In this document: one piece after another, positions 14,553 to 54,585 of the stretch
Layout of the letters: each line of letters begins with the position of its first letter
Numbering within the stretch: position 1 is the first letter of the stretch
Source: Rhizodiscina lignyota
Lineage: Eukaryota
DNA: 64,000 nucleotides
Direction of reading: 5' to 3'
NCBI GenBank assembly: GCA_010015805.1
Contig: ML978145.1
Coordinates: forward strand, 1-64,000
The notes under the pieces: generated by a model
What the model was told of the DNA's origin: nothing
Database searches by the model: none
What the model saw: only the letters and a program-made list of their open reading frames with translations
Translations under genes and position numbers: made by a program

Positions 14553-14775
14553 TACCAAGTTGGAGATGTAGGTATGGAGTTGCGCTTGATACTTTAGAAT
14601 TCTAGTCCTTGGAGGAGTGACATGGAATACACAAGCCGGAATGAGCAGAGACCCTTACATTATACACTCATTTCCGCAACATATCTACTCGACCAGATGC
14701 CAGAGCAAAAATTGGAACCCTTTCTTATCCAGACTATGAAAATATACAGGCTAAATACATGTCATCGCATAGCTT

Positions 14776-21899: not shown

Positions 21900-22315
21900 T
21901 TCACATGTCGCAAAGACAAGTTTTAGATTGACGAACGCATCTGAGAATGGATAGAGATGAGATGCTGCACGTTAGCACAAATGTTGAAGTTTTGTTTGCG
22001 TCGTTGTTCGCGAAGTGGCGATTTCCCGAATATCAAGTTTCAACTCAACGTCCGCGCTAACCCAGTTTGGAAATCGGTTTGAAGCCAGACCTGAAAGTTG
22101 AGCAAGAGAATCTGCAACGGATCACGTTAAGGTTGGATTTAATCATGGGGCAAAATCGCATGAAATATTTGTTCTGCGCTGGCGGTGTGATGTGCGCTGG
22201 CAGCAGTGATAAGTCCCCGCCGTCACTTTCTTCAGTGACAGTCGCAAGACGGTTCCATCACACGGGCTTGCTTCGTTTTGGAGTCTTCTTAAATGTGGTG
22301 AGATTACATTGCAAT

Positions 22316-32300: not shown

Positions 32301-35300
32301 AGCTCTCCATTGGAGACAGCACAGAAGACAAGCTCAAGTCTGCTGAAACGGAAACCGAACTAAGCACCGGAGACGCTGCCGATGCTGCTGTTGAGAGGAT
32401 ATTGCCGGGCCCGTTCAAGATCCTGGGTCCGTGAAAAGCGTTCACGGGGCCATTGATGACCACCGTTGTTTCAGACGATAAATCCGTGGGTACCGATGAT
32501 GACATACTCATCGATTCAGTTGTTGACGTTATCGCGAGCGACAGAATTAGAGATGTGCTCTCCACAGATGACAAAGAAGAGCTGTCCGCAGTGACAGTCG
32601 AAGACGAAATCGCTTCAAGCACCGCCGAAGCCATCTCTGACTGGGACAAATCCGTAAAGGAAGACAGTGCCTCAGACATCAAGTAATCGGATGTAACCGC
32701 ACTGCTTGGTAGGGAAAGTATCGTCAAAAAACTGAGAGTTCCGGAAAACTCAGTTGGACTGCTCAGCGGGAGGCTCGCTCCAGTAACAGTTGTAACCGAA
32801 GAATTTGTGCCAATTTGTTCAGAGCTAGATGCAGACCCCACAATCATGCTGCCTGAGGACACCGATTGCTCTGTAGAAAAGGTAAACGGCGTGACCTCCG
32901 ACGCGCTAGATGTAGCAATATTACTTTGGTCGAGGCTGTAAGACAGCTCTGAAGCGGCTGAGGAGAATGATACCGCGATGGAAATGATGGACGTCTGTCC
33001 CGGACTAAGTGCGGTGGGAATCTGGCTGTCCGCTCCACTAAATGGAGACGAGAGTCCAGGACTTTCCACACCAGTTCCAATGGAGGCTAGTAGCGATGAT
33101 ATCGATTCAGGCGTGACTTCGAAGAATGATTGTATAGCACTGGAAGAAATGGATATGATTGAGTCTGTGATCAGCGCAGTTGGTAGGGAAGCTGGGGTTT
33201 CGGACAAGGCTGGCGAAGTTTGTTGCGTAAGCGGGGTATTGATTGTAGCTGCTGGCGATGCAGAGTACAAGCTGAAAATTGAATTGGAGATAATGGTTGT
33301 CAAAGTGGTAAGTGAAGCCAGTTCTTCGGAATTTGTTGTGGTTGCAGATTCCGCAGAGATAATAAAATTGCTGAAAGCTATGGTAAACGTTTGGGATTGC
33401 TGAGTAGGAAAGGTCGTCGTAACGAATGGAGACGTCAATAGAAATATCGAAGGAATGGCTGTCATCGGTTCAGAAGACAGCAAATATGAATAAGCAGTGC
33501 CCGGGGTCAAAATTGAGCCGCCACTGCTGAATTCAGATTCGGGCAACGTGAAACCGATCGACGTTACTGTAGCTGATACTATGGCTGTGGTGGTGGTAAC
33601 TGGGGGTGTTATGAGAGTTGGTAGAACAGTCGAGGTCATTGCTGATGATGGCAGAGGGCTTTCTAGGCTTGTAGTCGATGGAGTTGCGGATGGAGCACTA
33701 GCGGTCGAGGGCGTCGTGATTGAAACGGTATCCGGGGCGATATAACTTGAAAGGGCAGCAGTGTATTGAGTTCCGGCCGTGGTACCCACGGTGCCGGTCA
33801 AGACTGCATCCATGTTGTAGGATGATGAGAGCAAGCCTGGCCCCACTGTTGCCTCTGCCGCTGTGGAAGACGGAGGAACCGACTCGGTCGTTGCCTGTCC
33901 ATCTCTTATGAGATGAGCATCTGTCCGGGTTGCATCGATGGTGATCGTAGGCAGAGGAGCGCGACGAAATCTCCGGTGCGCTGATACTGGCGGAATCACG
34001 ATCACCGAAGTTGCCAGGCCCGAGGGGATATCCTTCAGCTCACAGTTACAGGTTGTTACTGGATCCAAGGACAATGATGCTCCGGTATCACCACTGGCCT
34101 GTCGCTTCATGTGGAGGAGATGCAGAAGGCCCAAATGTCTTCGATCCAATCGGAATAGGCGTCGACCTCCCTGGGCATCATTTCCAGTCTCCGAATAGGA
34201 AACATCGGTGCAATTGGGTGTGTTGCTACAATTTTGCATGCAAATGTCGAAGCCGCATCCAAATGTCGTCGTAATGTTACTCAAAACAGTCCCCGATCGG
34301 ACGATATAGCAGTTTATCTGGTATACGTCCCCAGCGACTGTCCAGTTTGACCCGCTGCTTTGGGGACAAGTTGGCCCTTGGTCCGACGTGGACAATGTCC
34401 CTGACCCACTCTCGCTGGTAGTGTTAGTCTCGTTGGTAGTGTTAGTCTCGATGTTGGCCGTGACTGGGAGAGTCGGCACGGGACTTGCAAGTGAGCCCGA
34501 AGAGCTTGAAGAGCTTTGGAAGGAGACCGTGGAACTCTGGGGGGAGCCCGTAGAATTCTGGGAGACTGTGGAACTCTGGGAGCTCGTGGAACCCTGGGAG
34601 CTGGTGGAACCCAGATTGTCTGATAGACGCCTCACAGACCATACAGAGTTAATTAAATATGCACCATAATCAGAATCCCTCATATCGCACGACCCCGGAC
34701 TGCCATCAGAGTATGCGGCATCGATACAGTTCGACTGTGATCCACAAAGCTGGATGCAATCACTGAAAGAGGACGCCGGAATCGTTCCAATATGGTCTCC
34801 AATTCGATCGATATAGCACTCAACAAGGAATGGCCCTCCATCCGTGGCCACCATCGTTCCGTTTGCGTCAGGACAGGTGAGCTCAAGCGATGTTGAGTTA
34901 GATGTTGAATTAAGCGATCCAACAGAAATAGACGTCTGCAAACTCAACTGCGAGGTCGCTGAGAGCAATTGTCCACTTGACTGTGGCGAAAAGAAAGTGT
35001 TTGCACTCGAAGAGACTCCTTGTCCACTTGACTGTGACGAGAAGAACGTGCTTGTGCTTGAAGAGACTCCTTGTCCAGCTGGCGACGATATCGGCATGGG
35101 TAAGGGGCTGGCCGACAACGAGAGCGTAATTAATGCGCTGATACTTTCAAACATTGGTGCTGTTGTTGTCTGAAAGATGTTGCTCGAGCTAATTGATATT
35201 GAAGAAATCTCGATGGTAACAAAACTCCCTGTGGATGGCGAATATGTGGGGTTGGAGCCAAAGTTCGACGAACCAAATGGAGAGCCAGATGAAGAGCCAG

Positions 35301-36767
35301 ATGAAGAGCCAAATGGAGAACCAAATGGAGAGCCAAATGAAGCACCAGATGGAGAGACAGATGAAGAACCAGAATTCGATGAACCAGATGAAGACCCAGA
35401 TGAAGAGCCAAATGGAGAGCCAGACGAAGAGCCAGAATTCGATGAACCAGATGGAAAATCAAATGAAGAGCCAGATGGAGAACCAGATGGAGAGCCAGAT
35501 GATGAGCCAGATGGAGAACCAGATGGAGAGCCAGATGATGAGCCAGATGATGAGCCAGATGATGAGCTAGATGATGAGCCAGATGATGACCGAAATGATG
35601 AACCAAATGGGGAACCAAATGGTGAGCCAGATGATGACCCAAATGGTGAGCTAAATGGTGAACCAAATGGAGAGCCAGACGATGAACCAGAATTCGATGA
35701 ACCAGATGAAGAACCAGATAAATAACCAGAGCCAGAAGTCGGTTGTGGTTCTGAAGCGGTCTTTGAAGCCTCAGCCGCAGCAGATTCGATTGCTTCAACT
35801 ATCCCTTCTGCATTCACGCTTGTCATAGTTTGTGCAGATGCCGATATGAGTGAGCCGCTACCAAGTAATAGCGACTCTGAGACCGAAGGAAAACCAGGAG
35901 TTTGGGAGCCAAATAAAGAAAGGCTCCAAATTCCGTTACTAGTTCGGAAACGTACAGGTGGAAGGCCAGCGCCCATAACCATCGCAGTACTAAGTGTGGA
36001 TCCTCCAACCACACTTGGAGAGCTGGGAGATATCGTCGCTTCATTGAGCGTGCTTAATGTTGTTCGCCCCAAACTTTGAGACTGATCTTGACGTACTACG
36101 AAGGTCGAGAATCCATTGAATGGCACAGAGGGCGAATCAGTCCCGGATATCGCCACTTGGTCAAGGAGGTATATTACGCCTTCAATGTGTTCCCAGTCTT
36201 TGCTCTGCAGGTCTATGGTTTGCTGCGCAACCATTTGATTCTCGCCTGTTCTTGTCGCGTAGAGGATAATTGGAGATAGAATCGCAACTGTCACGTCCAC
36301 AAGCCTGGTGGAGAAGGATGTGTCTCCAAAGACTGGCTGTGCAAGGGTATGTGGTGGAAAGACGGGTGAAGTAAGCGGAGATCCGGCATTTTGCGGCAAG
36401 ATCCTGTCGTCGGCATTGCCTTCATTGTTCTCTTCACTAGAAGCCACTACCGTTCCAAAGTCGTATCGGTCCTCATCCAGCCTCATATTTTGTATCCCAA
36501 GTAAACGTGGATGCGACGAAATGGATGGCATATTCGAGTACGCGGCCGGCGTAGAAGTTTCGACATCCTCGACGCGAGGCGAATCGTCGATGTGTGTTTC
36601 GTAAATGGTCGTCCATACTGTAATGGTCGATGTTTTGCGATGCTCGCAAGCAGGGAGCGAGCCTGTCCTTCGTGTTAACGCCAGAAATCGGGCGGGAGCC
36701 GTTTTCACTCACTTCTAGCAAAGCTGGTGAGAGCCCCCACTATGAGCCACACAAACCCAAGGTTCAT
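29395..36767 (-). CDS. Very large secreted Ser/Thr-rich mucin-like protein with three Cys-rich Apple/PAN-like domains
   Basis: Signal exon MNLGFVWLIVGALTSFAR (ATG 36767), intron 36663-36712 joins it to the 2437-aa ORF; CP...C..D...CI..C...C modules near 34870, 34370 and 29855. Confidence 0.8.
35250..35720 (-). repeat. 12-bp coding tandem repeat (SSSG/SPFG/SPSG) within the mucin
   Basis: gatgagccagat / aatggagagcca units repeated dozens of times. Confidence 0.9.
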
Positions 36768-37651: not shown

Positions 37652-40600
37652 TTACTCGAACACCATCAGAACATCTCCTGCGTTGACCATAGTGCCTGGC
37701 TTCTTAATTATTGCCTTGATCTTTTTCCCTTTCGCTTCCGTTGGGGCATAAACATTTATTTCCATTTTCATAGCTTCCAGAATTGTCACCAGGTGGCCAG
37801 CCTCCACGGTATCTCCAACGGCAACCTCCACTTTCCAGACATTAGCAGCCATTGGAGCCGCAACAGTAATCGAGTTCCTCAGCATGTCATTTAGATGCGA
37901 CTCATCGACCGGCTCGTCATCTGCTGTCTCCGCCATCCACTCTTCGTATAGCGTCTTTTCGATTGCTGCTTGCTGGTTCAATGCCTTTAGCTGGCGATCC
38001 TTGTATGCCATTACGTCCGGATCTTTCTTTGCTGCTTGGAACAGGCTATACGCTTGTTCAACATCGAAGACTCCTTCTCTCACATCCCACTCGTACTGGC
38101 CTGCTTGATACTCGGCATCCAAGCGATCATACTCTTCCACGCTGACCTCGTCAAACTTGATCAGATCGTACGGTTCAATAACCCAAGGTCTTTCGGTGGT
38201 GAATCCGGGCTTGTTTCCGAATGGATCAAACATTTCCAACGTCCGTGCCAGCATCATATAGCCACCGGGCTGTTCGATAGGGTAAAGCGAAAGAATGGAT
38301 CCACCAACTCCGACTGTCCCTCCGGGAGTGGAAACGCTACAAGCCATTTCATCAGCGTTCCTCGAGGACAGCATGATGTAAGATACTCACCGCGTTGGAT
38401 TATATTTCTGAGCAAGAAATGCTTTCGGCTAATCATTATCAGCATTACATACGGTTGACATGTACTCTAAACTTACTGCTAACGGGAAGAGCATTGGTGC
38501 TCCGCAAAGAAATCCCACAGCGACAACAACGAACTCGGTCTTGGTGAGGATTTCAAAAGCCTGGCGTCGACTTTCCATGGCATTTGCCTTCTTCAGATAT
38601 TCGACATTGTCGGGAAGATAGACAGCCTTGTTCCTCGTCGTGTCCATATATCTCTGGATGCACTCGTTTATGGCAGGATGATCGAGCACAACAGGAAGAC
38701 GAATCTCCCGACAGGGGATCTTAATGCTTACATTCGCCTCGATCGATGTCTCCAGTCCATCTATGAGACTGAGAAGGCTGCTCTGTGAGATCTTCTCGGG
38801 TTCATACTCGATCGTCAAACAGCCGATATGAGGAGTGAGAAGAAGGCCAGGCGCCTTCTCCAACTCTAATTTCTCTACAAGTAAGCGGATCCGGGAGACA
38901 ATACCAATATCGGCTGATTGTTCCCCAAATTCAACCAAGATGAAGGCATCGCCACCCTGGACGCATTAGCATGAAGAACTTGGAAAACACCGTCTTCTCT
39001 CAACACACCTGTCGATACACCACTCTGGGTCTAAGGGTACCGTTGGATGGAATCGACTTTAATATCGCAGTCGTATCACCGATGTCACTTCGTAATTGTT
39101 TAGTGCTCATGTTACTCGCTGGTGTTCCGTTCACTGTTCCGTTTATCATTATCCCACTCACTGTATTTTCAACAGACTTGATGTATGTCGCCACTACATG
39201 TTTCTGCTTGAGAGCTGATTCCAGAGAGATTGGAGTGAGAGCGACTTTGTCATCGGGGCGCAGCTGGCCAAGCTTCCACAGATCAGCTGTGACAACGGTG
39301 GAAGAGCAGATGAGTCCACCAAAATTTGGAGAATCAAATGCCAGGATCGTCGAAGCGTCTCCTCCCCAGTTCATTCCACCGGGAGAGGGATATCCGAAGC
39401 TGTTCTGATTGTCAGCCGGAAGCCCAGGTCAACGCATTGAAGCAGGCCATACTCCAGGTAGTTTGACGGGTGCGAGCCGGCCTGTAGCAGAATCAACAAT
39501 ATTCTTCACCCCAGCACTGCATAGATGAAGACTTACTTCGCCACCGTCAGAGCGCGCCCATTTCGGTGCAGGCCCGATGAGTTTGATCCCTGTTCGGTTG
39601 GAATTGTGCCCTACCCTCCAAAGGGTGTTGTACAGCATTTCCCGATCTTCAGCTGTCATGATGTCTGCGCTGTCGTGTGGGCCCTGCATGACATATACTT
39701 CCTTGATGTTGAAATCTGGTATCAATTCAACAGGGAGCGAAAACGCTTCGAATTTCTCCGCCCAGTTTGGACTTTGTTCAGAGAGTTCCAGATAGTCTCC
39801 TGCACGCACTTGGCGGCCCTGGGTCCCTCCGTACTTCAAGCTCGGCGTTGTCGCTTTGGAGCCAAATACCAGCGGAATATTTGGGAAGCCACCCTTAACA
39901 GCGAGGTAACATCGAATACCGGGCCCTTTCAGGAAACCGATCATAAGTTTCTGGCCGGCATCGATCCGCAGTCTTGACCACATTGGAACTTCTTTGCCAT
40001 CAACCGATACTGGCACTGCAGCGCCACATATAGCAATTACGGCTGCAGCGTTGAAAACGAGCTCTGGCCCGTCTAACGTAATTTCAAGAAGATCAAGGTC
40101 TTGATCATTACCGACTAGTATATTCGCAATCCGAGCGGATATGGAATCCATCGGCCCGCTCTTCGGAATACCGTGTCCCTTTTTTGGCCTTCCAACATCC
40201 TGAACGGTAGTAAAAGCTCCAGCCGAGAGGACATCAATCGCGCAAGGCCTGTATGGAAATGTATCCAGAAACGTCGTTAGCGTATTCCCTTTCCCAAAGT
40301 CGCTTGATGCTATAATCCTTTTCACGAAATCCAGGTTATTTGCGGGACCTTTAAAGGACACCTTGTATGCGAGAGCAGCTGTCATCTGAATGATTGTCTC
40401 AGCTCTTGTTGAAGCGTGCACCATCACTTTGGCAATCAATGGATCTTGGATGTGTCAATACGACTGACCTCCTCGTTGATACGACTTTCGGAGTGTACTT
40501 ACCGAAATACGATGTGATCTCTTGCCCGGACTTGACCCAAGTGTCGACTCTCAAGCTTCCATCCACAGGAATCACAACCTCCTGCAGGATACCCGGGCTG

Positions 40601-41842
40601 GGTGCAAAATTCCTTGATGGATTCTCGGCATATATCCGCACCTCGATTGCACTTCCATCAGGGCCATCTTTCACAAGCAGTCTCAGGCTTTCGATCGGAA
40701 TGCCGCCTGTTCCATGCCGTTCTCCGTCCGCTTGCAGAAGCATCAGCTCCACGAGATCTACTCCGTAGCAGAGTTCGGTGATTCCATGCTCCACTTGAAG
40801 TCTCGTGTTCATTTCCAAAAAGAAGAAGCTCCCGGTCTCATCGTCCACGAGAAATTCTACGGTACCAGCTGACTTGTAGTTCAGTGCCGATGCGTAATTA
40901 ACAGCACAGGTTGTCAGTTTCTCCCTCATTCCCGGCTTAGATTCAACAAACGGAGATGGACATTCCTCGATCACCTAATATTTTCAGCATCACAGTCGCT
41001 CTCAAACGAAAATTCTGCCCGCATACCTTCTGGTGCCTTCGTTGGATGCTACACTCGCGCTCCCCAAAGTGTACGACCTCATCGGCTCCGCCGAAGACTT
41101 GGACTTCAACATGTCTGCTTTTGGAGTAGTATTTCTCTAAGAAAACACCAGCATTCTTGAAAAGCGTCTCGCCACGACTCTGGACGCTCTTGTACTTGAC
41201 CCTGACATCTTCTGCAGAGAAGCAAACTTGAAGACCCATGCCACCTCCGCCACCAGTAGCTTTCAGCATGACCTGACAGAATCAGTAGGAACAATGAAAT
41301 CATGCACCCGAGAGAGCATACTGGAAATCCAAGCTTTTCGGCCTCTTCCACTGCAATCTGTTCACTCTCAAGCAGCTCGGTACCAGGCACAACAGGAACA
41401 CCCGTTGCAATTGCAAGTTCACGAGCGCGATGCTTCAGCCCCATAGCTGTAATGCTCTCCGGAGAAGGTCCAACGAAGACCATACCAGCATCTGCCACCT
41501 TTTGCGCGAAGCTAGCATTTTCGCTGAGAAAGCCATATCCTGGAATAACTGCGTCGACATTGTGCGCCTGGCAGATTTCGATGATGTTATCGCTGTAGTC
41601 TGTCAGAATCTTCAGCTTCGCAACAGGCTACTTTTGAGTGTATACACATCAAGATATCCGGCAACGCCTTCGGTTTTCAGCAAAACAGATTCATCTGCGA
41701 GACTGACATGGAGAGACGTTGAATCTGCAGGAGTATATATCGAGACACTTTGCAGTCCGAGCTTCGAGCATGCCCGAATGCAGCGCGCTGCTATTTCGCC
41801 TCTATTGGCCACTAGAACCTTCCGAATACTCGAAAGCCCCAT
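37652..41842 (-). CDS. lamA: LamA-type urea-carboxylase-like protein: biotin carboxylase + AHS2(PxpC) + AHS1(PxpB) + biotin carrier
   Basis: KVLVANRGEIA, PGYGFLSEN, KATGGGGGMG, ECSIQRRHQK, EMNTRLQVEH, TTVQD..GPMD, KYNPTR, EAMKM; all 9 introns read by eye keep the frame. Confidence 0.85.
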
Positions 41843-42375
41843 GATTAGACGAAAATATGGGCCAAAGCCGCCAAACACAACTTCAGGAAGTTGCAGGATT
41901 CAGTCGGTTTGGGAGTGAACTAATTCGTCATACGATACATCAGAAGCATACCATTGCAAAACGAGTAAGGCATCTTACTATGATCCGCATTCCAGTTTCA
42001 CCTCCGGCGTTGATGAGCAAACTTCCTGCGGTCTGCCGAAATGGCTTATCGCTCGGTGCAGCGGGGGGCGTTCCGCCTCACGTACAAGGATACTGTCATA
42101 TCTTTCTTGCCGAGAACTGTCCGCCAGACATGGAAATTGTTCACGATCTACATATCCGCGGTTGTAAAAATGCGGAGACGAGGAGACGAGGAATATGTGT
42201 CACTCATCAATATCGTACTCTTACATAATAGCACTACCTGCCCGATTGGGCAGATGCTGACCGTCAACATCTCCAAAGGAGAAAGGAAAGATAGATATTG
42301 GACAGGTAGCAATACCTATTGCGAATGCTAATTTTTGGAAGATAAAGGTAGACTATTTGTTATCAACATATACAA

Positions 42376-43245
42376 CTACGACCATCCCTTTTCGGTGTTG
42401 ATCTGATCAATTGCTTTCCGACACGCCTTCGCGTTATCCAACGCCGTCGGCATATCCGAATGAATACATATGGAGAATGGCTTTCCCTTGAAATCCAGTT
42501 TCACCGGCACGCCTTCAAAGCCGATTACTGAATTCTCCTTACCAATCGACATTGTCCGAGTGTAGACATCGTCTGGAGTAGCTAGCTTGCCCTGCCCAAC
42601 GCGGACGAGCTTCTTGTTATTGTCAAAGAAGATATCCACGTACGCTTCTTCAACAAAGATGAGGCCGTACTTCTCACACAGCGCCTTCTCTTCGTCGGAT
42701 CCAATGGCGCCATAAACCGGCACGCCAAATGTGGCGCATGCTTTAATGACAGCTTCGCATATTGCGAGGTCGCGCTGCATGTAGAAGAAGAGTTCCCCGT
42801 GCGGCTGCTTCGTGTTTAGTTCAATTCAACTGGCCGGAGAGTGAAAATACCTTGATATGATTCAACGGCACACCCTCGGCCTTGAGAAAAGCAGTGAGAG
42901 CTCCAACTTGGTAGAGAATCATCGCATACATGTCCTCAGGGTCAATTTCTACCTTGCGACGTCCAAATCCGATGAGGTCTTGAAGACCAGGATGGGCACC
43001 GATCTTGACTCCGTGCTCTTTAGCCAACTTCACCGTTTTGCGCATAATAGATGGATCGCCTGCGTGAAACCCACAGGCGATATTTGCGACATCTGCTAAT
43101 TTCATGAGTTCCTCATCCGGTCCCTGTTCATAGCGTAAGTTAGCATGACCGAAGCCGAAGTCAGGCTGGCTCATACCATCTTCCACCGCCCGAACCCCTC
43201 ACCCATATCGCAATTAATTTCGAGCTTCTTCACGATATTCTCCAT
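42376..43245 (-). CDS. lamB: LamB/YcsF (PxpA-like) lactam utilisation protein
   Basis: [27 protein letters not shown]...GFGRR, HIK|PHG, SICIHSD; 2 introns. Confidence 0.92.
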
Positions 43246-43972
43246 GATATGTGGCCTGGTTAGAATTGGATGACGCTTGCAGAATGTTTGGTGTCTCACG
43301 TTGCTGCGGAGTATTGGAGGATGTCGGCATCTTGGCCCGTTCGCAATGGAGTGAGACTCCGTCGCACCGAACGTCACCGCGAATTTCTCTCACGTCACAT
43401 CCTCAATTCTTATTTTCAACTCACGGACACCGTTCCGCGTTTCAATCCATGTTCTCCAGCACAGATGGCTTTCTCCGGTTCCAGCTGGACGTCTCTCTTT
43501 CCCGGTGCAGTCAAAAATCCCCGTTGAAATTCCGGCTAACTACGACCCTTGCTTCCGATCGCCACATCAACAGATAAAACGTCTTATCGTCCATCCTCGG
43601 ACAAATCGACCATTAACTTGAACGTACAGTACCCTGGGGCTGATAACACCTTGAGTGATGCCAAAATGTGATGCGAAGTCAGGGCTTACATTGTTCAAAT
43701 CATTGCGGGCAAAATTGGTAGGGGAACATGCAGCCGATGCACGTACATGGAAAAGTGCGCAGTATCAATTCAAGGAAGCTTGCGACATCGTCACAATGAA
43801 GAAGATGTGCAAGGTTCTGTACACTATGGTCTGGATTCCTTGTCGGACAATCCGACCTGTACCTGTACTCCTTGTTGTACCTCCGCGTTGTTTCCTCCTT
43901 TCCTCCTTCATGGCTTGAATCAATGTCAGAGCTGCTAAACAAACATCTCTTTCAATTTCTATATTCGGCACA
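43246..43972. promoter_or_regulatory. Bidirectional lamB/transporter promoter with GATA (AreA-type) and SYGGRG (CreA-type) sites
   Basis: GATAA 43573, TTATC 43584, CTGGGG 43634, GATAA 43642 within about 75 bp. Confidence 0.5.
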
Positions 43973-46334
43973 ATGGCAGGCACTTTGTTACCTCAAGGCG
44001 CTGGATATGGCATCATCATTGGATTTGGGGCCCTTTTCGCCCTTGGCATGTGGGGACTCGCAGTGCTTCTCGCCAAATTCCACAACGAAGTCCAAGGGTC
44101 GGAGATGTTCATGACAGCGAAACGCTCCGTACGAACTGGACTTGTAGCTTCTGCAGTCGTGAGTTCGTGGACGATTGCGGCTACATTACTCACATCCTCT
44201 ACATGGGCGTTCGAATTTGGAGTCTCGGGTGCGTATTACTATGGAGCGGGAGCAACTGTGCAAATCTTCGTCTTTGCAGGTATGGCCTTCTACGTCTGTC
44301 CGTGACGTGACATGGACCTTATAAAGCTGATTAGAAAAGTTGCGGCAATTGAGATGAAGCGACGAGCTCCCGGTGCGCATACGTTCCTCGAGGTGGCGCG
44401 CATAAGATACGGTACAGCAGGTCACATTATCTTCATCATCTACTCCACCATCTATGCGATTATCAACTGTGTCAACATTCTGGTTGGAGGATCGGGAGTT
44501 TTCACTGCTTTGACTGGCATGAATGTAATTGCCGGTGTCTGGCTGTTACCGGTCGGCGTTGTGATATATACTTTGACCGGTGGAATTAAAGCAACCATCT
44601 TGACAGATTACACTCATACCAGTAAGTAAATGCCCATTGCCCTACGATTTATTTTCATTCAAAGATACGTCCGTTACAATAGCGAGACTAACTTCTTCTC
44701 TAGTCGTCATCTATGCGATGGTCCTCGCGGGACTGTTCGTCGTATACACTAGCAACGATGTTCTCGGAAGCCCAGACAGAGTCTATGATCTCCTCCGCGA
44801 CGCGGCAAAGACTGCGCCGGTACCTGGAAATGCTGGCGGTGAATACGTAACAATGCGATCACAGAGCGGCGTGCTCTTGGGTGTCGTCTTTTGGTGCGCC
44901 GTGTTTGGAACAACAATCGATGTGCAGCTATTTCAGAAGGCTGTCAGGTATTTCTTCCGTTGATGACTCTAAGCTCATAATTGACTTCCTCATAGCGCGG
45001 ATCCTGTCAGCACCCTTCCAGGTTACATGATTGGAGGATTGGCATGGTTCAGCATCCGTGAGTATCTTGAACTGTGGGATTCCCAGCTGGTACTAATGAA
45101 TTTTGTTAAGCATTCTGCCTTGCAACAACATTTGGCCTCGCCGCTAGAGCACTGCAAGGATCACCGGGAATGCACACGCTCGATGCCGACGACATATCCC
45201 ACGGCTTGGCTTTGCCATACGCGGCACAAGCTCTTATGGGCAAGGGTGGATCATTCTTCGTCCTTCTCATGACATTCATGGCATGCACGTCTGGATTTTC
45301 AGCAGATATCGTCTCAATCGCGGCCGTATATACGTACGATATTTACAGTGCATACATCAGCCCGACGACATCTGGCGGGAAGCTTCTGCGGATGTCTCAT
45401 TTTGCTGTCATTGTTTGGGCTGTGTGCATGGCAGTGATTGCCACTGGTATTTCTCAGACATCGATCGGTGTCAATTATCTGGTTACTTGCATGGGTATGG
45501 AATGAAGGGTAGCACTAATAACATGATGAGCTGACTGCCCGACAGGCGTCTTCACCGGCTGTGCCGTGTTCCCGATATACAGTACGCTTCTGTGGAAACG
45601 ACAAAACAAAATCGCAATCACTGTAGCCCCAGTGCTCGGTAGCATAACCGCAATCGGCTCATGGTTAGGCAGCACACATGCTCTGGAAGGAGCAGTGACT
45701 GTCGCGAGTACTTCACAGACGATCCCTCTTGTAATCGGAAATGCGGTATCGCTGTTCAGTGGCGCGATATACTCCATTATCCTCACTTATGCATTCGGCC
45801 CGGATGACTTTGATTGGAGTCGATTAAAGACGGATATCATAGTCGTCGACGACAGTGACATTCAAGGTCTCACTGCAGAACAGCTAGCCGAGCAGAATGC
45901 GGCAGAGCTTCTGACTCCCGAAGCTGACAGAGCACTGAAGAGGGGGAAGTGGCAAGCGATGCTGATCGCAGCTATTCTTTGCGCCATCTTTGTCATTCTC
46001 TGGGTAAGTTACACTTTTCTGAGCAGCAGTGAGGTTGGGAACGTACTGACAGGGCTTGAAGCCGATGCCAATGTATGGCACAGACTACATCTTCTCGAAG
46101 CCATTCTTCCGCTTCTGGGTCGCATTAACATTTTTGTGGGCCTTTGGAGCTACTCTGATAATAACGCTTATGCCGCTGATCGAGGGAAGGAAGACAATTG
46201 CCATGTTCTGGAAATTTGCAACTGGCAGGCGTGTTTCCAAACCGGAGATGGTAGAAGGAGAACAGCAGCCTTCAGATTCTGACGAGAGAGTTGCTCAAAT
46301 CAATGTGAGTAAAACAGATATGGAAAAGGTCTAA
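43973..46334 (+). CDS. Sodium:solute symporter family transporter, DUR3 (urea/polyamine)-like
   Basis: LPQGAGYG, EMFMTAKRSVRTGLVASAVVSSWT, AYYYGAGATVQ, KRRAPGAHTFLE, GGIKATILTDY, PMPMYGTDYIFSK; 6 introns keep the frame. Confidence 0.9.
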
Positions 46335-46774
46335 GAGAGCTTTGTAGAAATAGACGACACAATCGATATCCACTTACGCTACGTTAATGTGCTCCGTTTC
46401 CTGCGAGGAACCACAGATTAGCAGGTCTTGCTCATCTGTCAAGCTGACCCGCGGAAGCTCAACAAATCCAATACAATATTACTCAGGAAATCTCACAGGC
46501 GTCAGGTTGAGCAGAAGTTTCGTGTCTTCGTCTCATAAGCTTTCTCGTATATTAATCACGGCCTCTCAGGAGCCGGAGAGGCAAGATCCGTTGATGACAT
46601 AATACAGCGCAAACCGCGGCTGCTTTCCGCGGCTCAACCCCGACCCCCCGCAACCTCCTTCTCCTCTCCATTTGAGAGTCCGTGCAGCTCTCATACTCAT
46701 ATCAGGGCTTCCATCCGCGGCCATGATCCAGGCAATAGAGTTGAAACCCTACCGCATCGGACGACACCGCGTGG

Positions 46775-48849
46775 ATGCCGGAGGACACAGAAAACGGCCC
46801 AAGAAGCAAGAAACCGAGACTCCAGTCCGGCCAAGCATGTAGTAATTGTCGACGGAAGAAACATCGCTGCGATGGCGAACGACCGAAATGCTCTGGATGC
46901 CGGAGTCGTGGAATCACGTGCGAGTATCCCCTCGACAGTGTCAATTTGCTCTCCATACACGAGATAGAGGCCCTTGTTGAAGCCAACAGGAGGAAAGCAA
47001 GTGATGAGCGTGTGACGAACCAACATCGTAGCAGCTCAATCAATTCTCCTCATCCTTCCGATCCGAGTCATAAGACTCCATCAATTCCTGCTGTTGAACC
47101 AGTCCAAAGCCAAACCGCTTCCAGCCCGACTGGCTTCTTCGGTGGCTCATCAACCTTCAATCTACTCTCTACAATTCACCCAAGTAATGGAGAGGAGCAA
47201 AGATCTGAGCATCGTCCACATGCGACACAATGGTCCGAACGGGACGGATCCGGTATTGATTTTGACAATTCCCGATATCAGTTTCCTACTCGTGCTTTTG
47301 CCGATCAACTGGTAGATGCGTACTTCGAACGTGTGCACATTCTGTATCCGTTTCTTCACGAGACCACGTTTCGTGCAGATTACGAGCTGATGTGGTCGCC
47401 TGAAACATCCCATGCCCTGAAGAGCGACACCGCGAAGTCGGCAATCTTGAATATTGTTTTCGGTTATGGCTGCGAATTTAGTCACGCGCTGCCCGAGCAT
47501 GACATTTTCGACAAAGCTTCTCCTTTTGTGTCGCGAGCCCGTAACATCATCTTCTCTCACGTTTTTAAGAATACGGACTTGGCTCTGGTGCAAGCAATGC
47601 TACTTCTGTCTCATTATTTGCAGGGCATATTGGAGCTGAATGAGTGCTGGAATCTAGTAGGCCTGATGATACGAAGCGCCATTAGCATCGGACTTCACCA
47701 GAATCCCTCTGAGGATAAGAGCTTAACGCCTGTGGAGAAGGAGATCCGCAAGCGCGTCTGGTGGGGTTGCTTTATCTTAAACCGGACGCTAAGCATGAAG
47801 TTTGGGAGGCCACCGTCGATTATGGTTGATGATGCACTCAACGTGGATTTGCCATTTGACGTTGATGATCAGTATATCACTGAGCCTTCTGCTATTCCAC
47901 GACAGCCATCTTCCAGACCATCTCGAACCACATTCTTCACTCAAACAGTATCTCAACAGCGGAAAGAACCGCATCAATAAAGCCTCCAAATTATCGCAGC
48001 TTCCTGGAACTACCGAGTCGATCATCTTGGGAAATGCAGTTGTTCTTGATGGCAATCTGCAAGCTTGGTGGAACAGTATGCCGGCACATCTGCGACTGCT
48101 ACCCACACTGCCAGATGGCCCTGATTTTCAAAGACAGCGTTGCGTAATCCGCATCAGGTAAATTCTACAACTCACACTACATTCTACAGATATAGTGAAG
48201 ACCTTGCAGATATATAAACATGCGAGTGCTCTTACAACGAGCTCCATTTCTACATTTCAGCCGCCATCGAATTGACGACAGCTGCCTTCGAGCCGTTGCT
48301 GTTGCTTCAGCGAAGACTTGCTTGGAAGCGGCCCGAGACGCGATTCGGCTAATAAACGAGCAATATGAGGATCGGATGCTCAATTCACTGTGGTATATCT
48401 GCACTGTGAGTAATCTGTGTTTGTTGCGATTTTACTGGCTTTGGGAGCGATCGGGCAAGCATCGGAAATGGTGTTCTCCGCTAACCGATACGATAGACGT
48501 TTTCACAGCAATTGGTGTCTTGCTATACCTGCAGACGATGGACAGAGCGAGACTGGAACTGCTCGGTGAACCGTTGGGTGATGACACTCTCGAATGTGGA
48601 ATGCGCTTCTTGCGCATGGCAAGTCGCAGTAGCAAACTCGCTGCCCGATACTTGGAAATGCTCGAGCACATTTTGCATTCGACCAATTCACGATTGCGCG
48701 ATACAAGTCAAGCTGCAGGGACCACAGGGAGAATCAATCGAGCGATTACCTCGGATCTTCCAACGATTCCAGCATACAGACCGACACTGATGACCGCCAT
48801 GATAATCCAAGCGGTTCCGTACGAAGTAGCGTGTGCAAATGGGAGCTAG
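46775..48849 (+). pseudogene. Zn(II)2Cys6 transcription factor with fungal TF middle domain, frameshifted and 3'-damaged
   Basis: ACSNCRRKKHRCDGERPKCSGCRSRGITC; YFERVH..YPFLH; RKRVWWGC..LSMKFGRP; frame change at about 47948 with no usable intron; 3' end runs into the MFS gene. Confidence 0.7.
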
Positions 48850-50503
48850 AACAGCATCAGTATGAATGCAAGACGAACAGAAGCAATAGAAAGGAGGCTG
48901 ACCATGTAGAAACCCAATGTAAAGGAGAATGTCAAGCGGCCGAAGTTGAGAAGGGTGGAGATCTCTGCCGACTGAGGTCTGTAGCGGTCTGCCAAATATG
49001 CAAAGATGTTTGTCGAGATGATCTGGAGACCGAAGCACCCGATCCCCATACCCATCACTGGACCCATCCAGTGTGTTCGATGCTGAAAGCACACTTCTTC
49101 GATAATCACACCTGCTGGAAGCAGGATCAATCCAGGCCACATAACATGGAGCCGTGTCTCGGGAGGCGATTCGCCATTATGCCGCCTGTTGGACCACAGA
49201 AGCAGCAAATCGCTGACCGGACCAGCTGCAAGCTCACCTATGATCGATCCAATAGTTGTTGGGACTCCGATGGCAAGACCGACTTGCGCAGTGTCGAATC
49301 CGTAGATGGCGCTAAATGACGCAGATCCTGTTACAGCGAACAAGACGGTCCCAATGCCAAAGGCATAACTGTAGTAGATGGTGGTGAGCAAGACTGAAGG
49401 GTACTTGAGCATGATGAAGCAATGGGTAAGGTCCCAGAGGCGGAGATGGCGTTTGACTGATTTCGGCCAAGGCCTGAGAAGGCGAATCCAAGAGCGCAAA
49501 TTCATCTGTGTATCTCCTGCGACTTGATCTCGGTGGTCAACATCTCGATGAAAGATCGTCTCTGGAAGCAAAAACAAGTTGAGAACCCAAGTAATTCCGA
49601 GGGCAATACAAGGCACCCAATAGCACCATCTCCAGCCGACATCTTTGGCAACGAATCCGCCGACGAGTACTGCGATATGAGCACCGTTTGTAGTACTTGG
49701 TCATGATCAGTATCACAACTCAATTCTCAACATGGCTGGCAGGTACTGACAAAATAACGTAGATACCCATGTACCTGGAGCACCATCAGCATCCCGTGAA
49801 AACAACAGAATTATCCGCAACATACTTTCCGCGTTCATGCATGAAATACATGTCGGACACAACAGATGCACCGATTCCCATGCCTGCTGAAGTCCCAACT
49901 CCAACGAATACACGAGCGACCAGCAGATTTTTCCAATGCGTGGAAATTGCGGACCTAGCACCAGCCACAATACCAATTATGCAGCTGAAAATGTACACTG
50001 GCCTACGACCGTATATGTTTGCTAATGGAGAGTAGAAAAGGGGAGCGACACCGGCCAAGACAATTGCAAGTGTCGTATTATACGAAGCTTCCGTGATTGT
50101 GATTCCCATGAATTGCGATAGAGGTCGATACGCGGAGTTCTTCCAGACTCTGTCAACAGGACTCTCCTTTCCGGCTCATTATTATATGGTACTCACAATA
50201 GCGCCTTGTGAGAATGGTCCCAGAAAGCCTAGGAAAGAGACCTGCAGCAAGACGAGAAGCTTGATCCATCTATTCCAATTGAGAGGATCTACGTAGTCTC
50301 AATTGGACGTCAAGATGGAGAATTCGGAAAATTGTCGACTCACCAAGAGGACTATCTGTCGGCTGAGGGCGGAGAGGAAAACCATGCTTATCAAGCTTCG
50401 GTTGACTCTCTTGGTTTGAGCGCGCTTCTGACTCTCCGATGATTTCTTGCTTTTCGGACTCCCACCTCTTCTCAATATCAGTGTGAGCTGCGGCGCCTTC
50501 CAT
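48708..50503 (-). CDS. MFS transporter (DHA1-like) with aberrant C-terminus
   Basis: PQPTDSPL|DPLNW, PLANIYGRRPVY, DMYFMHERGK, GWRWCYW, LPET; last exon LPFAHAT...LYAGIV runs antisense into the TF to TGA at 48708-48710. Confidence 0.8.
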
Positions 50504-50995
50504 CTTGAAGAACGGAGAATGTTCGTAACGATATCGTCAAACGCAACAGAAGCAAGATTTTAAGAAGGAAAGGATCAGATGCAGGGAAAGGAGAATAACC
50601 AAGTTGTCGGAAGTCCTGGTTTTACAGTGCTAATTCAAATGGCCTCGACCGCGTTCCTCCGCCATCCCGCGGGCTTTGGCCGCAAGCCACGCGGCATACC
50701 CCATGAGATCCAATTCCCCAGAATCTCACTATTTCCCTACGGTGATGTTCCTTGGATCTGGGGAAAGCCTGTATTTCGTGAGGGGAAGTCGGAATGCTGC
50801 CGCGGTTTCACACCGAACCTACCAACTCATTGCTTCCTCACATCAGCCTGTACAAATATACTCACATAATTCTCATTTGAGATACGGCTCTTAAACCTCC
50901 GATTCAACATTCTTCGCACACTATAGTATCCTCTGAGTATCTCGCAATCTCTTTAGTTCTCAAGTGCGGTTGGTTTTCATCGCCGAGATCTCACA

Positions 50996-52560
50996 ATGTT
51001 AAGCCTCGTTGGATTTGTCGCAGTCGGAGTTGGCCTTTTCCTTTTGGCTCAGTATACCTATTCGAGCTGGCGCCAACCCCAGCTCCTGGACCACATCCCA
51101 ACTCATACGTTCGCGGACGGCAACAACTCTCGCCAACGGTATCTCACAGACCTCAAAACGTTGCTTGAGTCTGGCTACCGAAAGTACAGTGGTGCATGGT
51201 CGACCATTCAAAGTCTCCATTCCCGTCGGAGGGTACTCTGTGAAATACCGGATCATCCTGCCGAAAGACTACCTCGAAGAGATCAAACATCTCTCGAACA
51301 ACGACTTTAGCTGGCAACTGGCATCTCGAATCATCTTTGCCGGGGACTACACTGGAGCTCCAGAGCGAGGCCCTTGGTCCGGCAAAGCTCTGCGCGTTGG
51401 TATTCACCAGAACCTTGGAGACATTAACAAAGTGCTGGAGAAGCGGATCGATGATTATTTCGCGACACATCTTCCTCAGAAAGCTGGCGAGCTGCCATCC
51501 GAGCATTTGATGTCGTTCTTTGTTCCTGCGATCGCATATGTTATCAATGCCATCCTTGTTGGCCCAAAACTGGCGTCCGATCCAGAGTGGGTGCGGCGAA
51601 CTTCTGAGTTTGCAGTGGATCGCTACATTGCCGCAGATGATGTACGACGATGGCCGCCATACTTGGCTAGTGTTGCTGCACCGTTCATTCCAAGTGTACG
51701 CAGATTACGTGACAGCAGGGCCTATGTATTAGAGAAGTTGAGACCGATGTATGAAGAGTTGAGGGCAAGACCCGACAGTGAGAAGCGCCAAATGCGGAAG
51801 GGTAGCTATGGGTTCGAATGGCTGTTTGGCGGAGCTCCAGAAGATGTCAGTCTCCAAGACTTTGCAGACACAATGATGCGCACAATCATTGCGTCTATTC
51901 ACACATCGGGAAAGACAATTAGCGTGGCCTTCATTGACCTTTTGACGCACCCAAAGTTATTGAAAGAGCTGCAAGATGAAGTACAATATGCGGCAGTAGA
52001 TGAATCGATCGATTTGGACAAGCTCGTAAACTTGGATCGTTTCCTTAAGGAGAGCCAGAGGCTGTCACCAGTTTTTCTCAGTGAGTAAAACACGTCTACA
52101 TTGATCGAATCGAACTAACGGTTGGACAGTAACGATGAACCGAGTCTTCACGCGAGACTACATCTTCAAGTGCAGCGGCGTAAAATTCCCTAAAGGCTCA
52201 ATGACAAGTGCAGCAGCCGCTGCTGTCGCCACAGATCCTGGAGTCTTCACAGATCCGAACACCTTTGATGGATACCGCTATCGGCGTCTCCGTGAAGAGA
52301 ACAAGGAGTCTGAGAGCTCCTTAGTGATGGGAATGCCGACAATGGACTCGCTTGGATTCGGGCTTGGAAATCAGGCATGTCCGGGAAGATTCATGGCTGT
52401 GAACAATCTGAAATTCATGATGTCGAAGCTATTGAGAGGCTGGGATTTAACGCTGGAGAAGAACGGTCAGCAATATCTTGGGCCGAGGCCGGAGATGCAG
52501 TACAACGATTTCTCAGTTGTAGCTCCGGCGGAATTTAGTATGAGGCTGCGAAAGTTGTGA
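50996..52560 (+). pseudogene. Cytochrome P450 (ent-kaurene oxidase-like clan) with +1 frameshift
   Basis: TM N-terminus, ASIHTS, KESQR, FDGYRY, heme FGLGNQACPG; frame shifts at about 51191 (TAC AGT G GTG CAT); intron 52082-52129. Confidence 0.75.
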
Positions 52561-53025
52561 AGAGAAGCGGCAACTGCTGAGTATCCAGGCCCTGCTTATG
52601 AGCATTGCATATCTGAAAGAGTCTGGCATGGGAAATAGAATGTGAGCCAACTTGTAGATCTTATCGTAGCACGTAAGTGCCCTTTAAAGCATTCTTCAAT
52701 CTGGCGGTACAGAAGAAACACATGAGGTTGTAGTGACACTGTAATATGAGATACAGACGATGCTTTGGAGTCGGATCTCCGGTGGAATTGAGTCACGTGC
52801 AACCCCAGCTTCTCACCCCAAAAAAGGAAAAGTTCCATATTGCCGGAGATCGCAGTTCTCCCCGCGTGATGGAAGTAGATGAACCGCGGCTGCTTTGGCA
52901 AGCACCACACACCCGCGCTATGTCCGGCCATTCACCGAAAGCCAAGGCTAGCTCTAGCTTCCAAATACCTTCAATTGAACCCCCTTAGACCTCAGTAGAG
53001 CCGTTGCGGCAGTCCCTAACCCACA

Positions 53026-54585
53026 ATGTCCATACGCATAGCGCCCACCAGGGCAGCACGCGCTCTCAACCTCCTCCGCACGATACAAGCTCATCCCCCG
53101 CAATGTCCATGCCACTCCAACCCAGCCGAGCACGCACATAACCACATCCATCCTCATGGCATGAAGAACCATGTCCGGCGTCTGGCGACTCCGATCGACA
53201 CCTCGCAGCAGAAGGAGTATGCGTTCGAGATGGCGGCGTCGTCGATCCGCTTCGGACGCGGGGTGACGCAGGAGGTGGGCATGGATGTGAAGAACATGGG
53301 CGGGACGCGGGTGATGGTGGTGACGGACAAGACAGTGAGCAAGCTGGACGCGATGAAGCAGGTGCAAGAGGCCTTGGGCAGGGAGGGCGTCGAGTTTAGG
53401 GTGTATGATGGGGTGAGGGTGGAGCCAAAGGACAGCAGTGTCAAGGACGCGATTGAGTTTGCGAAGCCGTACAATCCAGATATGTTCGTGGCTGTTGGAG
53501 GAGGGAGCGTGATCGATACGGCCAAGCTGATGAACCTGTATACCTCGTTTCCTGGTGCGTGACTGGAACTACCCCCGAGCGCTCGAGGTTCGGCTATGTG
53601 CTTTACGAGATAGGACTGACAAACGACTGCAGAAGCTGATTTCCTCGACTTTGTCAATGCTCCATTGGGCAAAGGCTTACCAATAACGCACAAGCTGAAG
53701 CCTCTCATCGCCATCCCGACCACTGCAGGCACTGGCTCTGAAACTACCGGCACTGCAATCTTCGATCTTGTTTCAAAGCGCGCAAAGACGGGTATTGCCC
53801 ACCGCAATCTCAAGCCAACGCTCGGCATAGTCGATCCCATCAACACGCGCACGATGCCATCTCAGGTGCATTCCAGTTCCGGTCTGGATGTGCTGTGCCA
53901 CTCGCTCGAGTCCTGGACGGCGATTCCTTACACAGAGAGAGTTCCGCGTCCCGATAATCCCATCAAACGACCAGCATACCAGGGTGCGAATCCGATCAGC
54001 GATATCTTCAGTCTGCAGGCCTTAAAAAGTACGGTCAAGTATCTGCCACGAGCAGTGAAAGATCCCGATGACCATGAGGCACAGGAGCAGATGTTGCTAG
54101 CTGCCACGCTTGCCGGTGTTGGGTTTGGAAATGCGGGTGTGCATTTATGCCACGGAATGTCTTATCCAATCTCCGGTCAGAACCCAGGATACAAGCACGC
54201 AGGCTACGAAGTGGACAGTCCCATCATTCCTCACGGCGTCTCTGTTGCGGTTACTGCTCCAGCAGTCTTCAGATTCACCGGACCTAGCAACCCAGAGCGG
54301 CATCTCGCAGCCGCAGAGTGCTTCGGCGTCGACACGAGCCGCGTCAAGGCCGAGAGCGCTGGTGAGGTGCTTAGCGAGGCATTATCGGAATTTTTGGTGA
54401 AGCTTGGAGACCAGCCTCGGGGTTTGAAGCCATTAGGCTTTCAGAAGAGCCACATCAACGACTTGGTCGAAGGAACCATTCCACAGGCCAGGGTTCTGAT
54501 GCTCGCGCCATCGCTGGACATTAGGAATTTGGATGTTGAGCGGGAGCAGTTGACTCAGTTGTTTGAGGAAGCCCTGGAGTATTGA
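53026..54585 (+). CDS. ADHFE1: Mitochondrial hydroxyacid-oxoacid transhydrogenase (Fe-ADH family)
   Basis: CPCHS, EYAFEMAASSIRFG, GGGSVIDTAK, PTTAGTGSETTG, HLCHGMSYPI; one intron about 53555-53631. Confidence 0.92.

What the first reader, a model, noticed from the sequence alone, without database searches (positions are those of the whole stretch)
37652..52560. lamA-lamB (biotin-coupled PxpABC-like) catabolic cluster with its own SSS importer, regulator, MFS and P450
Seen: an intact BC-AHS2-AHS1-BCCP gene in tandem with an intact LamB/YcsF gene, a DUR3-like transporter divergent from lamB, then a Zn2Cys6 TF, MFS and P450. No amidase-family allophanate hydrolase, which a urea/guanidine carboxylase pathway needs, is in the window. 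Established: A. nidulans lamA/lamB are needed for 2-pyrrolidinone use, and YcsF + AHS1 + AHS2 are the subunits of bacterial 5-oxoprolinase PxpABC. Inference: LamA+LamB form an ATP/biotin-dependent lactam (cyclic amide) ring-opening complex and the 'urea transporter' imports that substrate. The chemistry and the extended cluster look poorly characterised, and automatic annotation would call it urea amidolyase + urea transporter.
Basis: partly seen in the sequence, partly recalled or inferred. Interest (0 to 1): 0.82.

Follow-up and report, generated by a model that had tools for sequence, protein, structure and literature searches.

The report
Fungal biotin-driven lactam-opening gene pair
Two intact neighbouring fungal genes, a biotin enzyme labelled 'urea carboxylase' and a LamB hydrolase, most likely spend ATP to open a small ring amide rather than to break down urea; this is a known gene pair with unproven chemistry, and most of the 'extended cluster' beside it is damaged and was not found next to the pair in other fungi.

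Summary
The core is real; the extended cluster is not supported. lamA (37652-41842, 10 exons, 1238 aa, identical to a Rhizodiscina lignyota 'urea carboxylase') and lamB (42376-43245, 3 exons, 256 aa) are intact. The pair is linked in at least 10 other fungal genomes. LamA keeps the biotin lysine and the carboxyl-transfer lysine. It lacks an aspartate found in every bacterial urea/guanidine carboxylase examined; 100 of 101 fungal relatives share its G-F motif. Bacterial LamB loci carry biotin carboxylase plus carrier in 10 of 32 cases. Best reading (about 0.6): LamA N-carboxylates a lactam and LamB hydrolyses the activated ring; nothing here shows this directly. The DUR3-like transporter is intact and has lost three essential urea-binding residues, but it was absent from both informative fungal loci. 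The P450 is frameshifted. The regulator and MFS look damaged (inferred). This is a new member of the Aspergillus nidulans lamA/lamB kind; a Trichoderma version is in print. This scan noted the same module before on other DNA (six notes, fungal and bacterial).

The parts
37652..41842 (-). lamA: biotin carboxylase + carboxyl-transferase (AHS2, AHS1) + biotin carrier, 1238 aa, 10 exons, intact. Keeps K1201 (biotin), K1006, D708, Y711, N718; has G986-F987 where urea/guanidine carboxylases have G-D-V
   Evidence: identical to P0001
42376..43245 (-). lamB: LamB/YcsF (PxpA-family) hydrolase, 256 aa, 3 exons, intact; conserved D13, E16, H43, H67, K114, H116, H229, D231
   Evidence: fold of homologue P0122
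43973..46334 (+). DUR3-like SSS transporter, about 672 aa, 7 exons, intact; AtDUR3 urea residues W95, N305, Y315, Y461 replaced; W93, Y117, Q124, D312, W338 kept. Link to lamA/lamB unproven
   Evidence: (alignment made with the 74% identical P0173)
46775..48849 (+). Zn2Cys6 / Fungal_trans regulator, probably damaged: frame change near 47948 and 3' end overlapping the MFS antisense
   Evidence: damage inferred
48708..50503 (-). MFS transporter, about 506 aa, 6 exons; C-terminus probably clipped; not the orthologue of the lamA-linked MFS of Fusarium/Trichoderma
50996..52560 (+). Cytochrome P450 pseudogene: +1 frameshift near 51191, after codon 65

Best explanation
LamA and LamB form a two-step, ATP- and biotin-dependent lactam hydrolase built on the same plan as urea carboxylase plus allophanate hydrolase. 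Step 1 (from homology and intact motifs): the BC domain uses ATP and bicarbonate to carboxylate biotin on K1201. Step 2 (inferred): the carboxyl-transferase domain moves CO2 to the ring nitrogen of a small lactam, with K1006 as base. Step 3 (inferred): LamB, a probable metal-dependent amide hydrolase, opens the activated N-carboxy-lactam; the carbamate loses CO2 and leaves the omega-amino acid, for example GABA from 2-pyrrolidinone. The working unit is these two genes. The intermediate may simply diffuse between them. The exact lactam is not known. The transporter may feed the pathway but this is unsupported; regulator, MFS and P450 are decaying neighbours.
For: Both genes intact. K. lactis K1605, the reported general base (PMC5770610), is kept as K1006 and is K in 100 of 101 fungal rows. 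The G-D-V aspartate (K. lactis D1584) is present in 12 of 12 and 39 of 39 bacterial urea/guanidine carboxylase rows and replaced by G-F in 100 of 101 fungal rows; G-F is also the PxpB state in 25 of 26 rows. No LamB in 80 loci (977 kb) around bacterial BC or urea carboxylase genes, but BC plus BCCP within 6 kb of 10 of 32 pxpA genes. Four of those 32 loci carry a split carboxyl-transferase with LamA's signature (K, D, Y kept, G-F), three with their own BC and BCCP, and two of them hold the best two of 32 bacterial matches to this LamB. lamA-lamB linkage by near-consecutive accessions or locus tags in 10 fungal genomes, two merged gene models, and 2 of 2 informative metagenome loci. LamB fold: Z 27.7 to a LamB structure (rmsd 2.5, 235 aligned), then Z 15.2 and 14.2 to a ChbG-like protein and the deacetylase ChbG. 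In print: lamA/lamB are lactam catabolism genes (PMC8016842); a P. putida pxpABC paralogue is needed for butyrolactam (bioRxiv 2021.12.09.472016); mycobacterial PxpC/B homologues bind BCCP-biotin in a carboxylation-ready position and lack urea carboxylase activity (PMC13012033).
Against: No activity, expression or knockout data for this locus. LamA keeps four urea carboxylase active-site residues and scores 1224 against the TIGR02712 cut-off of 1303.85, so urea activity is not excluded. 22 of 32 pxpA loci have no BC or BCCP nearby, ordinary PxpB has Arg at the lysine site in 22 of 26 rows, and the literature assumes PxpB/C phosphorylate the lactam with ATP (PMC13274462; PMC8453981). The role of D1584 is recalled, not read (Fan 2012 was not held). 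The window's LamA lies in a different sub-clade (D708 type) from the Aspergillus proteins P0087/P0098 (E type, 38-40% identity), so its substrate may differ from 2-pyrrolidinone. A shared fold does not show LamB's function.
Confidence: 0.6

Rival explanations
1. LamA/LamB open a lactam, but by O-activation: carboxyphosphate or carboxybiotin activates the lactim oxygen (phosphorylation or O-carboxylation), as proposed for caprolactamase and assumed for PxpABC, and no N-carboxy-lactam forms.
For: Assumed PxpABC mechanism (PMC13274462); mechanisms A-C for caprolactamase (PMC8453981); most pxpA loci lack BC and BCCP (22 of 32).
Against: LamA keeps the full urea-carboxylase carboxyl-transfer set-up, including the base that acts on a substrate N-H, and an intact biotin carrier.
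Confidence: 0.12
2. LamA/LamB N-carboxylate and hydrolyse a different amide-type substrate (substituted cyclic amide, cyclic urea, ureide or polyamine-derived compound). The DUR3-like transporter imports it or its amine precursor, so the three intact genes are one unit.
For: Distinct LamA sub-clade. The transporter is intact, starts back-to-back with lamB and has a changed pocket. A copper amine oxidase is merged with a lamA model in Penicillium herquei (P0038). DUR3 paralogues are linked to polyamines (PMC7772357, search listing only).
Against: No SSS gene in 2 of 2 informative fungal loci. The named close relatives of the transporter are in Friedmanniomyces, Elasticomyces, Fomitopsis and others that are not among the listed lamA hits. 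Fusarium and Trichoderma use an MFS instead.
Confidence: 0.17
3. LamA is a true stand-alone urea carboxylase as annotated, with allophanate removed by an unlinked amidase or by LamB, and the SSS gene is a urea importer.
For: Database names; Strope 2011 treats these fungal proteins as urea carboxylases (PMC3073912); K1006, D708, Y711 and N718 are kept, and Asn is the urea-type residue (PMC12186494; mapping to this position is mine).
Against: The aspartate seen in all bacterial rows is lost. The transporter lacks W95, Y315 and Y461, each essential for urea transport. These fungi generally have urease, and amidase genes are unlinked (PMC3073912). The constant neighbour is LamB.
Confidence: 0.07
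4. The six genes from lamA to the P450 are one co-regulated catabolic cluster that works, or recently worked, together.
For: Adjacency; lamA/lamB sit with some regulator and transporter in other fungi (Trichoderma, PMC8675399; a Zn2Cys6 and a P450 beside lamA in L088).
Against: P450 frameshift; probable damage to regulator and MFS; neighbours elsewhere are not orthologues: MFS 24-27%, L088 regulator of another family and its P450 not matched by the window P450.
Confidence: 0.1

Closest known systems
Aspergillus nidulans lamA/lamB (AmdR-controlled lactam utilisation genes)
   Same: A stand-alone urea-carboxylase-like protein of about 1240 aa linked to a LamB/YcsF gene (size from PMC3073912; lactam role from PMC8016842; that P38095 is LamA, and the 2-pyrrolidinone to GABA genetics, are recalled).
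   Different: Tandem here, divergent in A. nidulans (recalled). The window's LamA is in another sub-clade from the Aspergillus proteins retrieved (38-40% in the carboxyl-transferase region). The A. nidulans sequence itself was not retrieved.
Trichoderma 'UC + LamB + MFS + regulator + NADPH dehydrogenase' segment (PMC8675399) and Fusarium lamA-MFS-lamB
   Same: lamA-type and lamB genes clustered with a transporter; same broad D708-type clade.
   Different: Different transporter (MFS, 24-27% identical to the window MFS) and a different regulator class; the authors left the function open.
Urea carboxylase / guanidine carboxylase (TIGR02712; K. lactis Dur1,2 UC, PDB 3VA7)
   Same: Identical domain order; nearest solved structure (E 5.5e-254); K1605, D1321, Y1324, N1330 equivalents kept.
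   Different: D1584 equivalent lost; below the TIGR02712 cut-off; partner is LamB, not allophanate hydrolase or carboxyguanidine deiminase.
Prokaryotic 5-oxoprolinase PxpABC and its butyrolactam-specific paralogue in P. putida
   Same: Same three domain families (LamB, AHS1, AHS2), G-F motif in AHS1, lactam-opening role.
   Different: LamA carries its own BC and BCCP in one chain, keeps Lys/Asp/Tyr/Asn where ordinary PxpB/C mostly have Arg/Ser/Ile/Gln, and scores far below the PxpB, PxpC cut-offs.
Split bacterial LamB + BCCP + BC + AHS1 + AHS2 sets (loci L145, L146, L150; L143 without BC)
   Same: Same five modules and the same active-site signature as LamA+LamB; best bacterial matches to this LamB (44-46%).
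   Different: Separate polypeptides; no characterisation found in the searches run.

Membership tests
lamA/lamB locus | Stand-alone BC-AHS2-AHS1-BCCP gene without amidase domain | tested here: met
lamA/lamB locus | Linked LamB/YcsF gene with intact conserved residues | tested here: met
lamA/lamB locus | Orthology to A. nidulans LamA itself | tested here: inconclusive
   A. nidulans sequence not retrieved; same fungal clade as Aspergillus P0087/P0098 but another sub-clade
lamA/lamB locus | Needed for growth on 2-pyrrolidinone; AmdR control | not testable with these tools
   needs knockouts and expression data
Urea carboxylase (TIGR02712) | Score above curated cut-off | tested here: not met
   1224 against 1303.85; bacterial control L001 scores 1787. 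The model is built for prokaryotes.
Urea carboxylase (TIGR02712) | G-L-G-D-V aspartate (K. lactis D1584) | tested here: not met
   G-F in the window and 100 of 101 fungal rows; D in all bacterial rows. Its catalytic role is recalled.
Urea carboxylase (TIGR02712) | General-base lysine K1605 and biotin lysine | tested here: met
   K1006, K1201
Urea amidolyase pathway | Fused or adjacent allophanate hydrolase | tested here: not met
   no amidase hit in 61 window frames; the rest of the genome was not available
Guanidine carboxylase | Asp at the specificity site and neighbouring carboxyguanidine deiminase genes | tested here: not met
   N718 in 118 of 118 fungal rows; no DUF1989-type hit in the window frames scanned
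PxpABC 5-oxoprolinase | PxpA, PxpB and PxpC homologous domains present | tested here: met
PxpABC 5-oxoprolinase | PxpB/PxpC family cut-offs and residue pattern | tested here: not met
   PxpC 137.6 of 500, PxpB 44.1 of 145.55; residues differ
PxpABC 5-oxoprolinase | ATP-dependent 5-oxoproline to glutamate activity | not testable with these tools
   needs assay
DUR3/UreA high-affinity urea transporter | Urea-binding residues W95, Y117, Y315, W338, Y461 (AtDUR3) | tested here: not met
   W95->I, Y315->L, Y461->V; Y117 and W338 kept

The most novel reading that the evidence does not exclude
The fungal stand-alone 'urea carboxylases' as a family are lactam N-carboxylases, a third substrate class for this biotin enzyme fold after urea and guanidine, and LamB/PxpA is the matching N-carboxy-lactam hydrolase. 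The same chemistry would then explain bacterial PxpABC, which would use a dedicated or borrowed biotin carboxylase and carrier. The LamB-linked, aspartate-less form may be the ancestral state from which urea and guanidine carboxylases arose (suggested by one FastTree tree, not tested further).
Probability: 0.5. Interest if true: 0.72.

Novelty: new member of a known kind. Interest (0 to 1): 0.42.

Why it matters
The locus itself is an ordinary member of a widespread fungal gene pair. The value is in the open chemistry: how PxpABC-type enzymes, which have no obvious ATP-binding subunit, spend ATP to open lactams. A single-chain fungal LamA with its own biotin carboxylase and carrier, plus one small partner, is the simplest system in which to test biotin-dependent N-carboxylation of a lactam. 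A positive result would re-annotate many fungal 'urea carboxylases' and bear on 5-oxoproline repair and on industrial lactam breakdown. This particular locus is a poor model for regulation or transport, because its neighbours are damaged or unlinked.

Tried and rejected
Complex prediction of the Xylaria LamA carboxyl-transferase region with its LamB: no verdict, alignments not used; not counted either way. Sequencing runs: no RNA holder listed, so splicing and expression were not tested. No whole genome is held, so allophanate hydrolase, urease, 5-oxoprolinase or second lamA copies elsewhere in this genome were not checked. The genome-contig scan with full LamA returned mostly plain biotin carboxylases (68 of 80 loci); 12 full-length hits served as controls. 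No fused LamA-type (G-F) protein was found among the loci returned from 552 bacterial genomes searched with P0043; only 39 loci were inspected, with 1.5 kb flanks. Reading the regulator through its break with X did not extend the Pfam match beyond profile position 205: inconclusive. The ESM Atlas gave only generic Zn2Cys6 clusters. A CCG-N4-CGG scan gave 9 matches against 9.8 expected: no regulatory signal. Look-ups of earlier findings by sequence and by relatives were blank. Papers not held: Katz and Hynes 1989, Richardson 1992, Fan 2012, Niehaus 2017, Lin 2016, Tong 2013. Rejected: lamB starting at 43174 (that ATG is intronic); assembly error as cause of the lesions (though that run is probably the source); the neighbouring HOT gene as a cluster member (no support found).
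Full report
1. What is there. The window is fungal DNA with short GT-AG introns. Splicing ten exons at 41842-37652 (-) gives a 1238-aa protein without internal stops that is letter-for-letter P0001, named 'urea carboxylase' of Rhizodiscina lignyota. Its domains are BC, AHS2 (CT_A_B), AHS1 (CT_C_D) and biotin carrier, with the BC motifs and the EAMKM biotin site intact. lamB lies 533 bp upstream on the same strand: three exons, 43245-42376, 256 aa, 62-79% identical to the 14 best fungal LamB hits printed. A DUR3-like SSS gene of about 672 aa starts 727 bp from the lamB start on the other strand. Zn2Cys6, MFS and P450 genes follow. No amidase family was hit in 61 frames scanned across the window. 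No whole genome was available.

2. The right-hand genes are not intact. Intact P450 relatives read through the region after GYRKY in one frame; the window needs frame 1 and then frame 2, one extra base near 51191, with no room for an intron. The regulator's long frame closes at 47980, and coding-like sequence resumes in another frame at about 47948. Gene models can bridge this with an intron, but all three candidate introns lack a branch-site-like motif that 18 of 19 other introns have; the one other exception is also in this gene. The regulator's last frame runs antisense across the final MFS exon, and the MFS ends soon after its last hydrophobic stretch. I read this as a deletion that clipped both genes. 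This is inference, since no close homologues of these two were available. The only public run holding the DNA, probably its source, agrees base for base.

3. LamA's active site. Against K. lactis urea amidolyase, LamA keeps D1321 (D708), Y1324 (Y711), N1330 (N718) and K1605 (K1006), but the G-L-G-D-V aspartate D1584 is gone (A-V-G-F-L). K1605 is the reported general base (PMC5770610, passages); the roles of the other residues are recalled. Of 120 listed homologues (214 found), 101 cover this site: 100 have G-F and one is a merged mis-model; 19 fragments were left out. All 12 full-length bacterial relatives and all 39 loci (37 distinct genes, two repeating earlier ones) have G-D-V. The Asp/Asn switch between guanidine and urea enzymes (PMC12186494, passages) shows up as D in 31 and N in 6 of 38 bacterial rows, and is N in 118 of 118 fungal rows, so LamA is not guanidine-type. 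It scores 1224 on TIGR02712, under the cut-off of 1303.85. Fungal proteins form one clade apart from bacterial urea and guanidine carboxylases, with two sub-clades; the window's protein is not in the one holding the Aspergillus proteins (FastTree).

4. LamB. Ten charged or His residues are invariant in 24 fungal LamBs, and most are shared with bacterial PxpA. A model of the Xylaria homologue (pLDDT 88) matches a LamB structure at Z 27.7, then DUF610 (16.7), a ChbG-like protein (15.2) and ChbG (14.2), with CE4 deacetylases at 10-12 among unrelated barrels. This fits a metal-dependent amide hydrolase but does not prove it.

5. Which neighbours are conserved. lamA and lamB have consecutive or near-consecutive accessions or tags in Xylaria FL0933 and FL0043, Hypoxylon trugodes, Eremomyces, Thozetella, Lasiodiplodia mahajangana, Clonostachys rosea and C. 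solani, Fusarium oxysporum Fo47 and Penicillium herquei; these pairs were picked because both genes had been retrieved, so this is not an unbiased rate. They are merged into one model in Chlorociboria and Exophiala. Of 8 fungal metagenome loci, only L081 and L082 extend upstream of lamA; both have lamB in tandem, and neither has an SSS gene in the 2.9 and 6.4 kb beyond it. Their neighbours are an AA9 enzyme, a proteasome-type ATPase, folliculin and a helicase; L085 has RTA1; L088 has a different Zn2Cys6 family and a P450 not matched by the window's. In Fusarium an MFS sits between lamA and lamB; it is about 71% identical to the Trichoderma one and 25-27% to the window's. The Trichoderma segment is in print with function left open (PMC8675399, passages). 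The SSS gene's named close relatives (60-82%) come from fungi absent from the listed lamA hits; these searches are incomplete, so this is weak evidence. Its pocket lacks W95, Y315 and Y461, each essential in DUR3, and N305 (PMC11840088, section 7). It is probably not a urea carrier, but nothing ties it to a lactam except adjacency.

6. Bacterial context. Among 32 pxpA loci from 26 of 121 sampled genomes, PxpB and PxpC were both detected within 6 kb in 26, BC plus BCCP in 10, and all four in 9. No LamB was found in 80 loci around BC or urea carboxylase genes. Four loci (L143, L145, L146, L150) encode a split carboxyl-transferase with LamA's signature; three have their own BC and BCCP. The window's LamB matches L145 and L146 best of 32. 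In a concatenated tree these split sets are sister to urea carboxylases plus fungal LamA, with ordinary PxpB/C outside (FastTree, midpoint root, no clade test). Against a general biotin mechanism: 22 of 32 loci lack BC/BCCP, ordinary PxpB has Arg at the lysine site in 22 of 26 rows, and published accounts assume lactam phosphorylation (PMC13274462 and PMC8453981, passages). For it: mycobacterial PxpC/B homologues hold BCCP-biotin ready for carboxylation and have no urea activity (PMC13012033, section 11), which shows that a carrier can be borrowed.

7. Mechanism. Shown here: intact BC, carrier and catalytic lysine; loss of the aspartate; steady linkage to LamB; LamB's hydrolase-like fold and residues. 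From the literature: lamA/lamB serve lactam catabolism (PMC8016842, passage; the 2-pyrrolidinone to GABA genetics are recalled), and a pxpABC paralogue serves butyrolactam (bioRxiv 2021.12.09.472016, section 11 part 1). Inferred: N-carboxylation of the lactam by LamA, hydrolysis by LamB, loss of CO2. I put this at 0.6. A stable complex is not required, since allophanate diffuses between the two activities of urea amidolyase (PMC5770610).

8. Novelty. The pair is a known kind. I found no paper testing biotin dependence of LamA/LamB or PxpABC in searches, but the library misses most subscription journals, six key papers were not held, and no supplements were read. Other papers consulted as passages without adding support: PMC3199775, PMC10176493, PMC11647477, PMC9783183, PMC8844935 (reference list only). 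Earlier notes of this scan describe the same module in fungi, a yeast and bacteria; they are leads, not evidence. Verdict: core observation right, interpretation of the core plausible and testable, extended cluster not supported. Interest 0.42.

Noticed in passing
window 53020-54585 (+): Iron-containing alcohol dehydrogenase family gene that looks like hydroxyacid-oxoacid transhydrogenase (name recalled). It would act on 4-hydroxybutyrate, chemically near the GABA route, but it sits with housekeeping genes (FtsJ methyltransferase, DEAD helicase) and was not seen at other lamA loci.
   Followed up: partly
window 29395-36708 (-): A 2437-codon Ser/Thr-rich open frame directly downstream of lamA, with Cys-spaced motifs and SSGSP-type repeats; no Pfam hit. 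Looks like a mucin-like surface protein.
   Followed up: no
window 46745-52560: Three adjacent genes (regulator, MFS, P450) all carry lesions or probable lesions, suggesting a decaying acquired segment. Several of the P450's closest relatives are also short or partial records.
   Followed up: partly
window 43973-46334; P0163-P0193: The SSS gene belongs to a DUR3-like sub-family with a shared changed pocket (WTI/WTL, WCAVFGTT.D), found in Dothideomycetes and in brown-rot basidiomycetes (Fomitopsis, 66% identical). Substrate unknown; the patchy range may reflect transfer.
   Followed up: partly
L143, L145, L146, L150: Bacterial LamB-linked split carboxyl-transferases that keep the urea-carboxylase Lys, Asp and Tyr but lack the G-D-V aspartate; best bacterial matches to fungal LamB.
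   Followed up: partly
P0038 (Penicillium herquei gene model): A lamA model merged with a copper amine oxidase, five locus tags from lamB, hinting at an amine-to-lactam route.
   Followed up: no
window 5416-21971: A run of catabolic or secondary-metabolism-type genes: alpha/beta hydrolase, two zinc dehydrogenases, HET domain, FAD monooxygenase, a second P450, and a GmrSD-N domain gene.
   Followed up: no
P0149, P0150, P0154, P0156: LamB homologues occur in budding yeasts (Brettanomyces, Pichia, Scheffersomyces, Lachancea), a group where Strope 2011 reported no stand-alone urea carboxylase.
   Followed up: no
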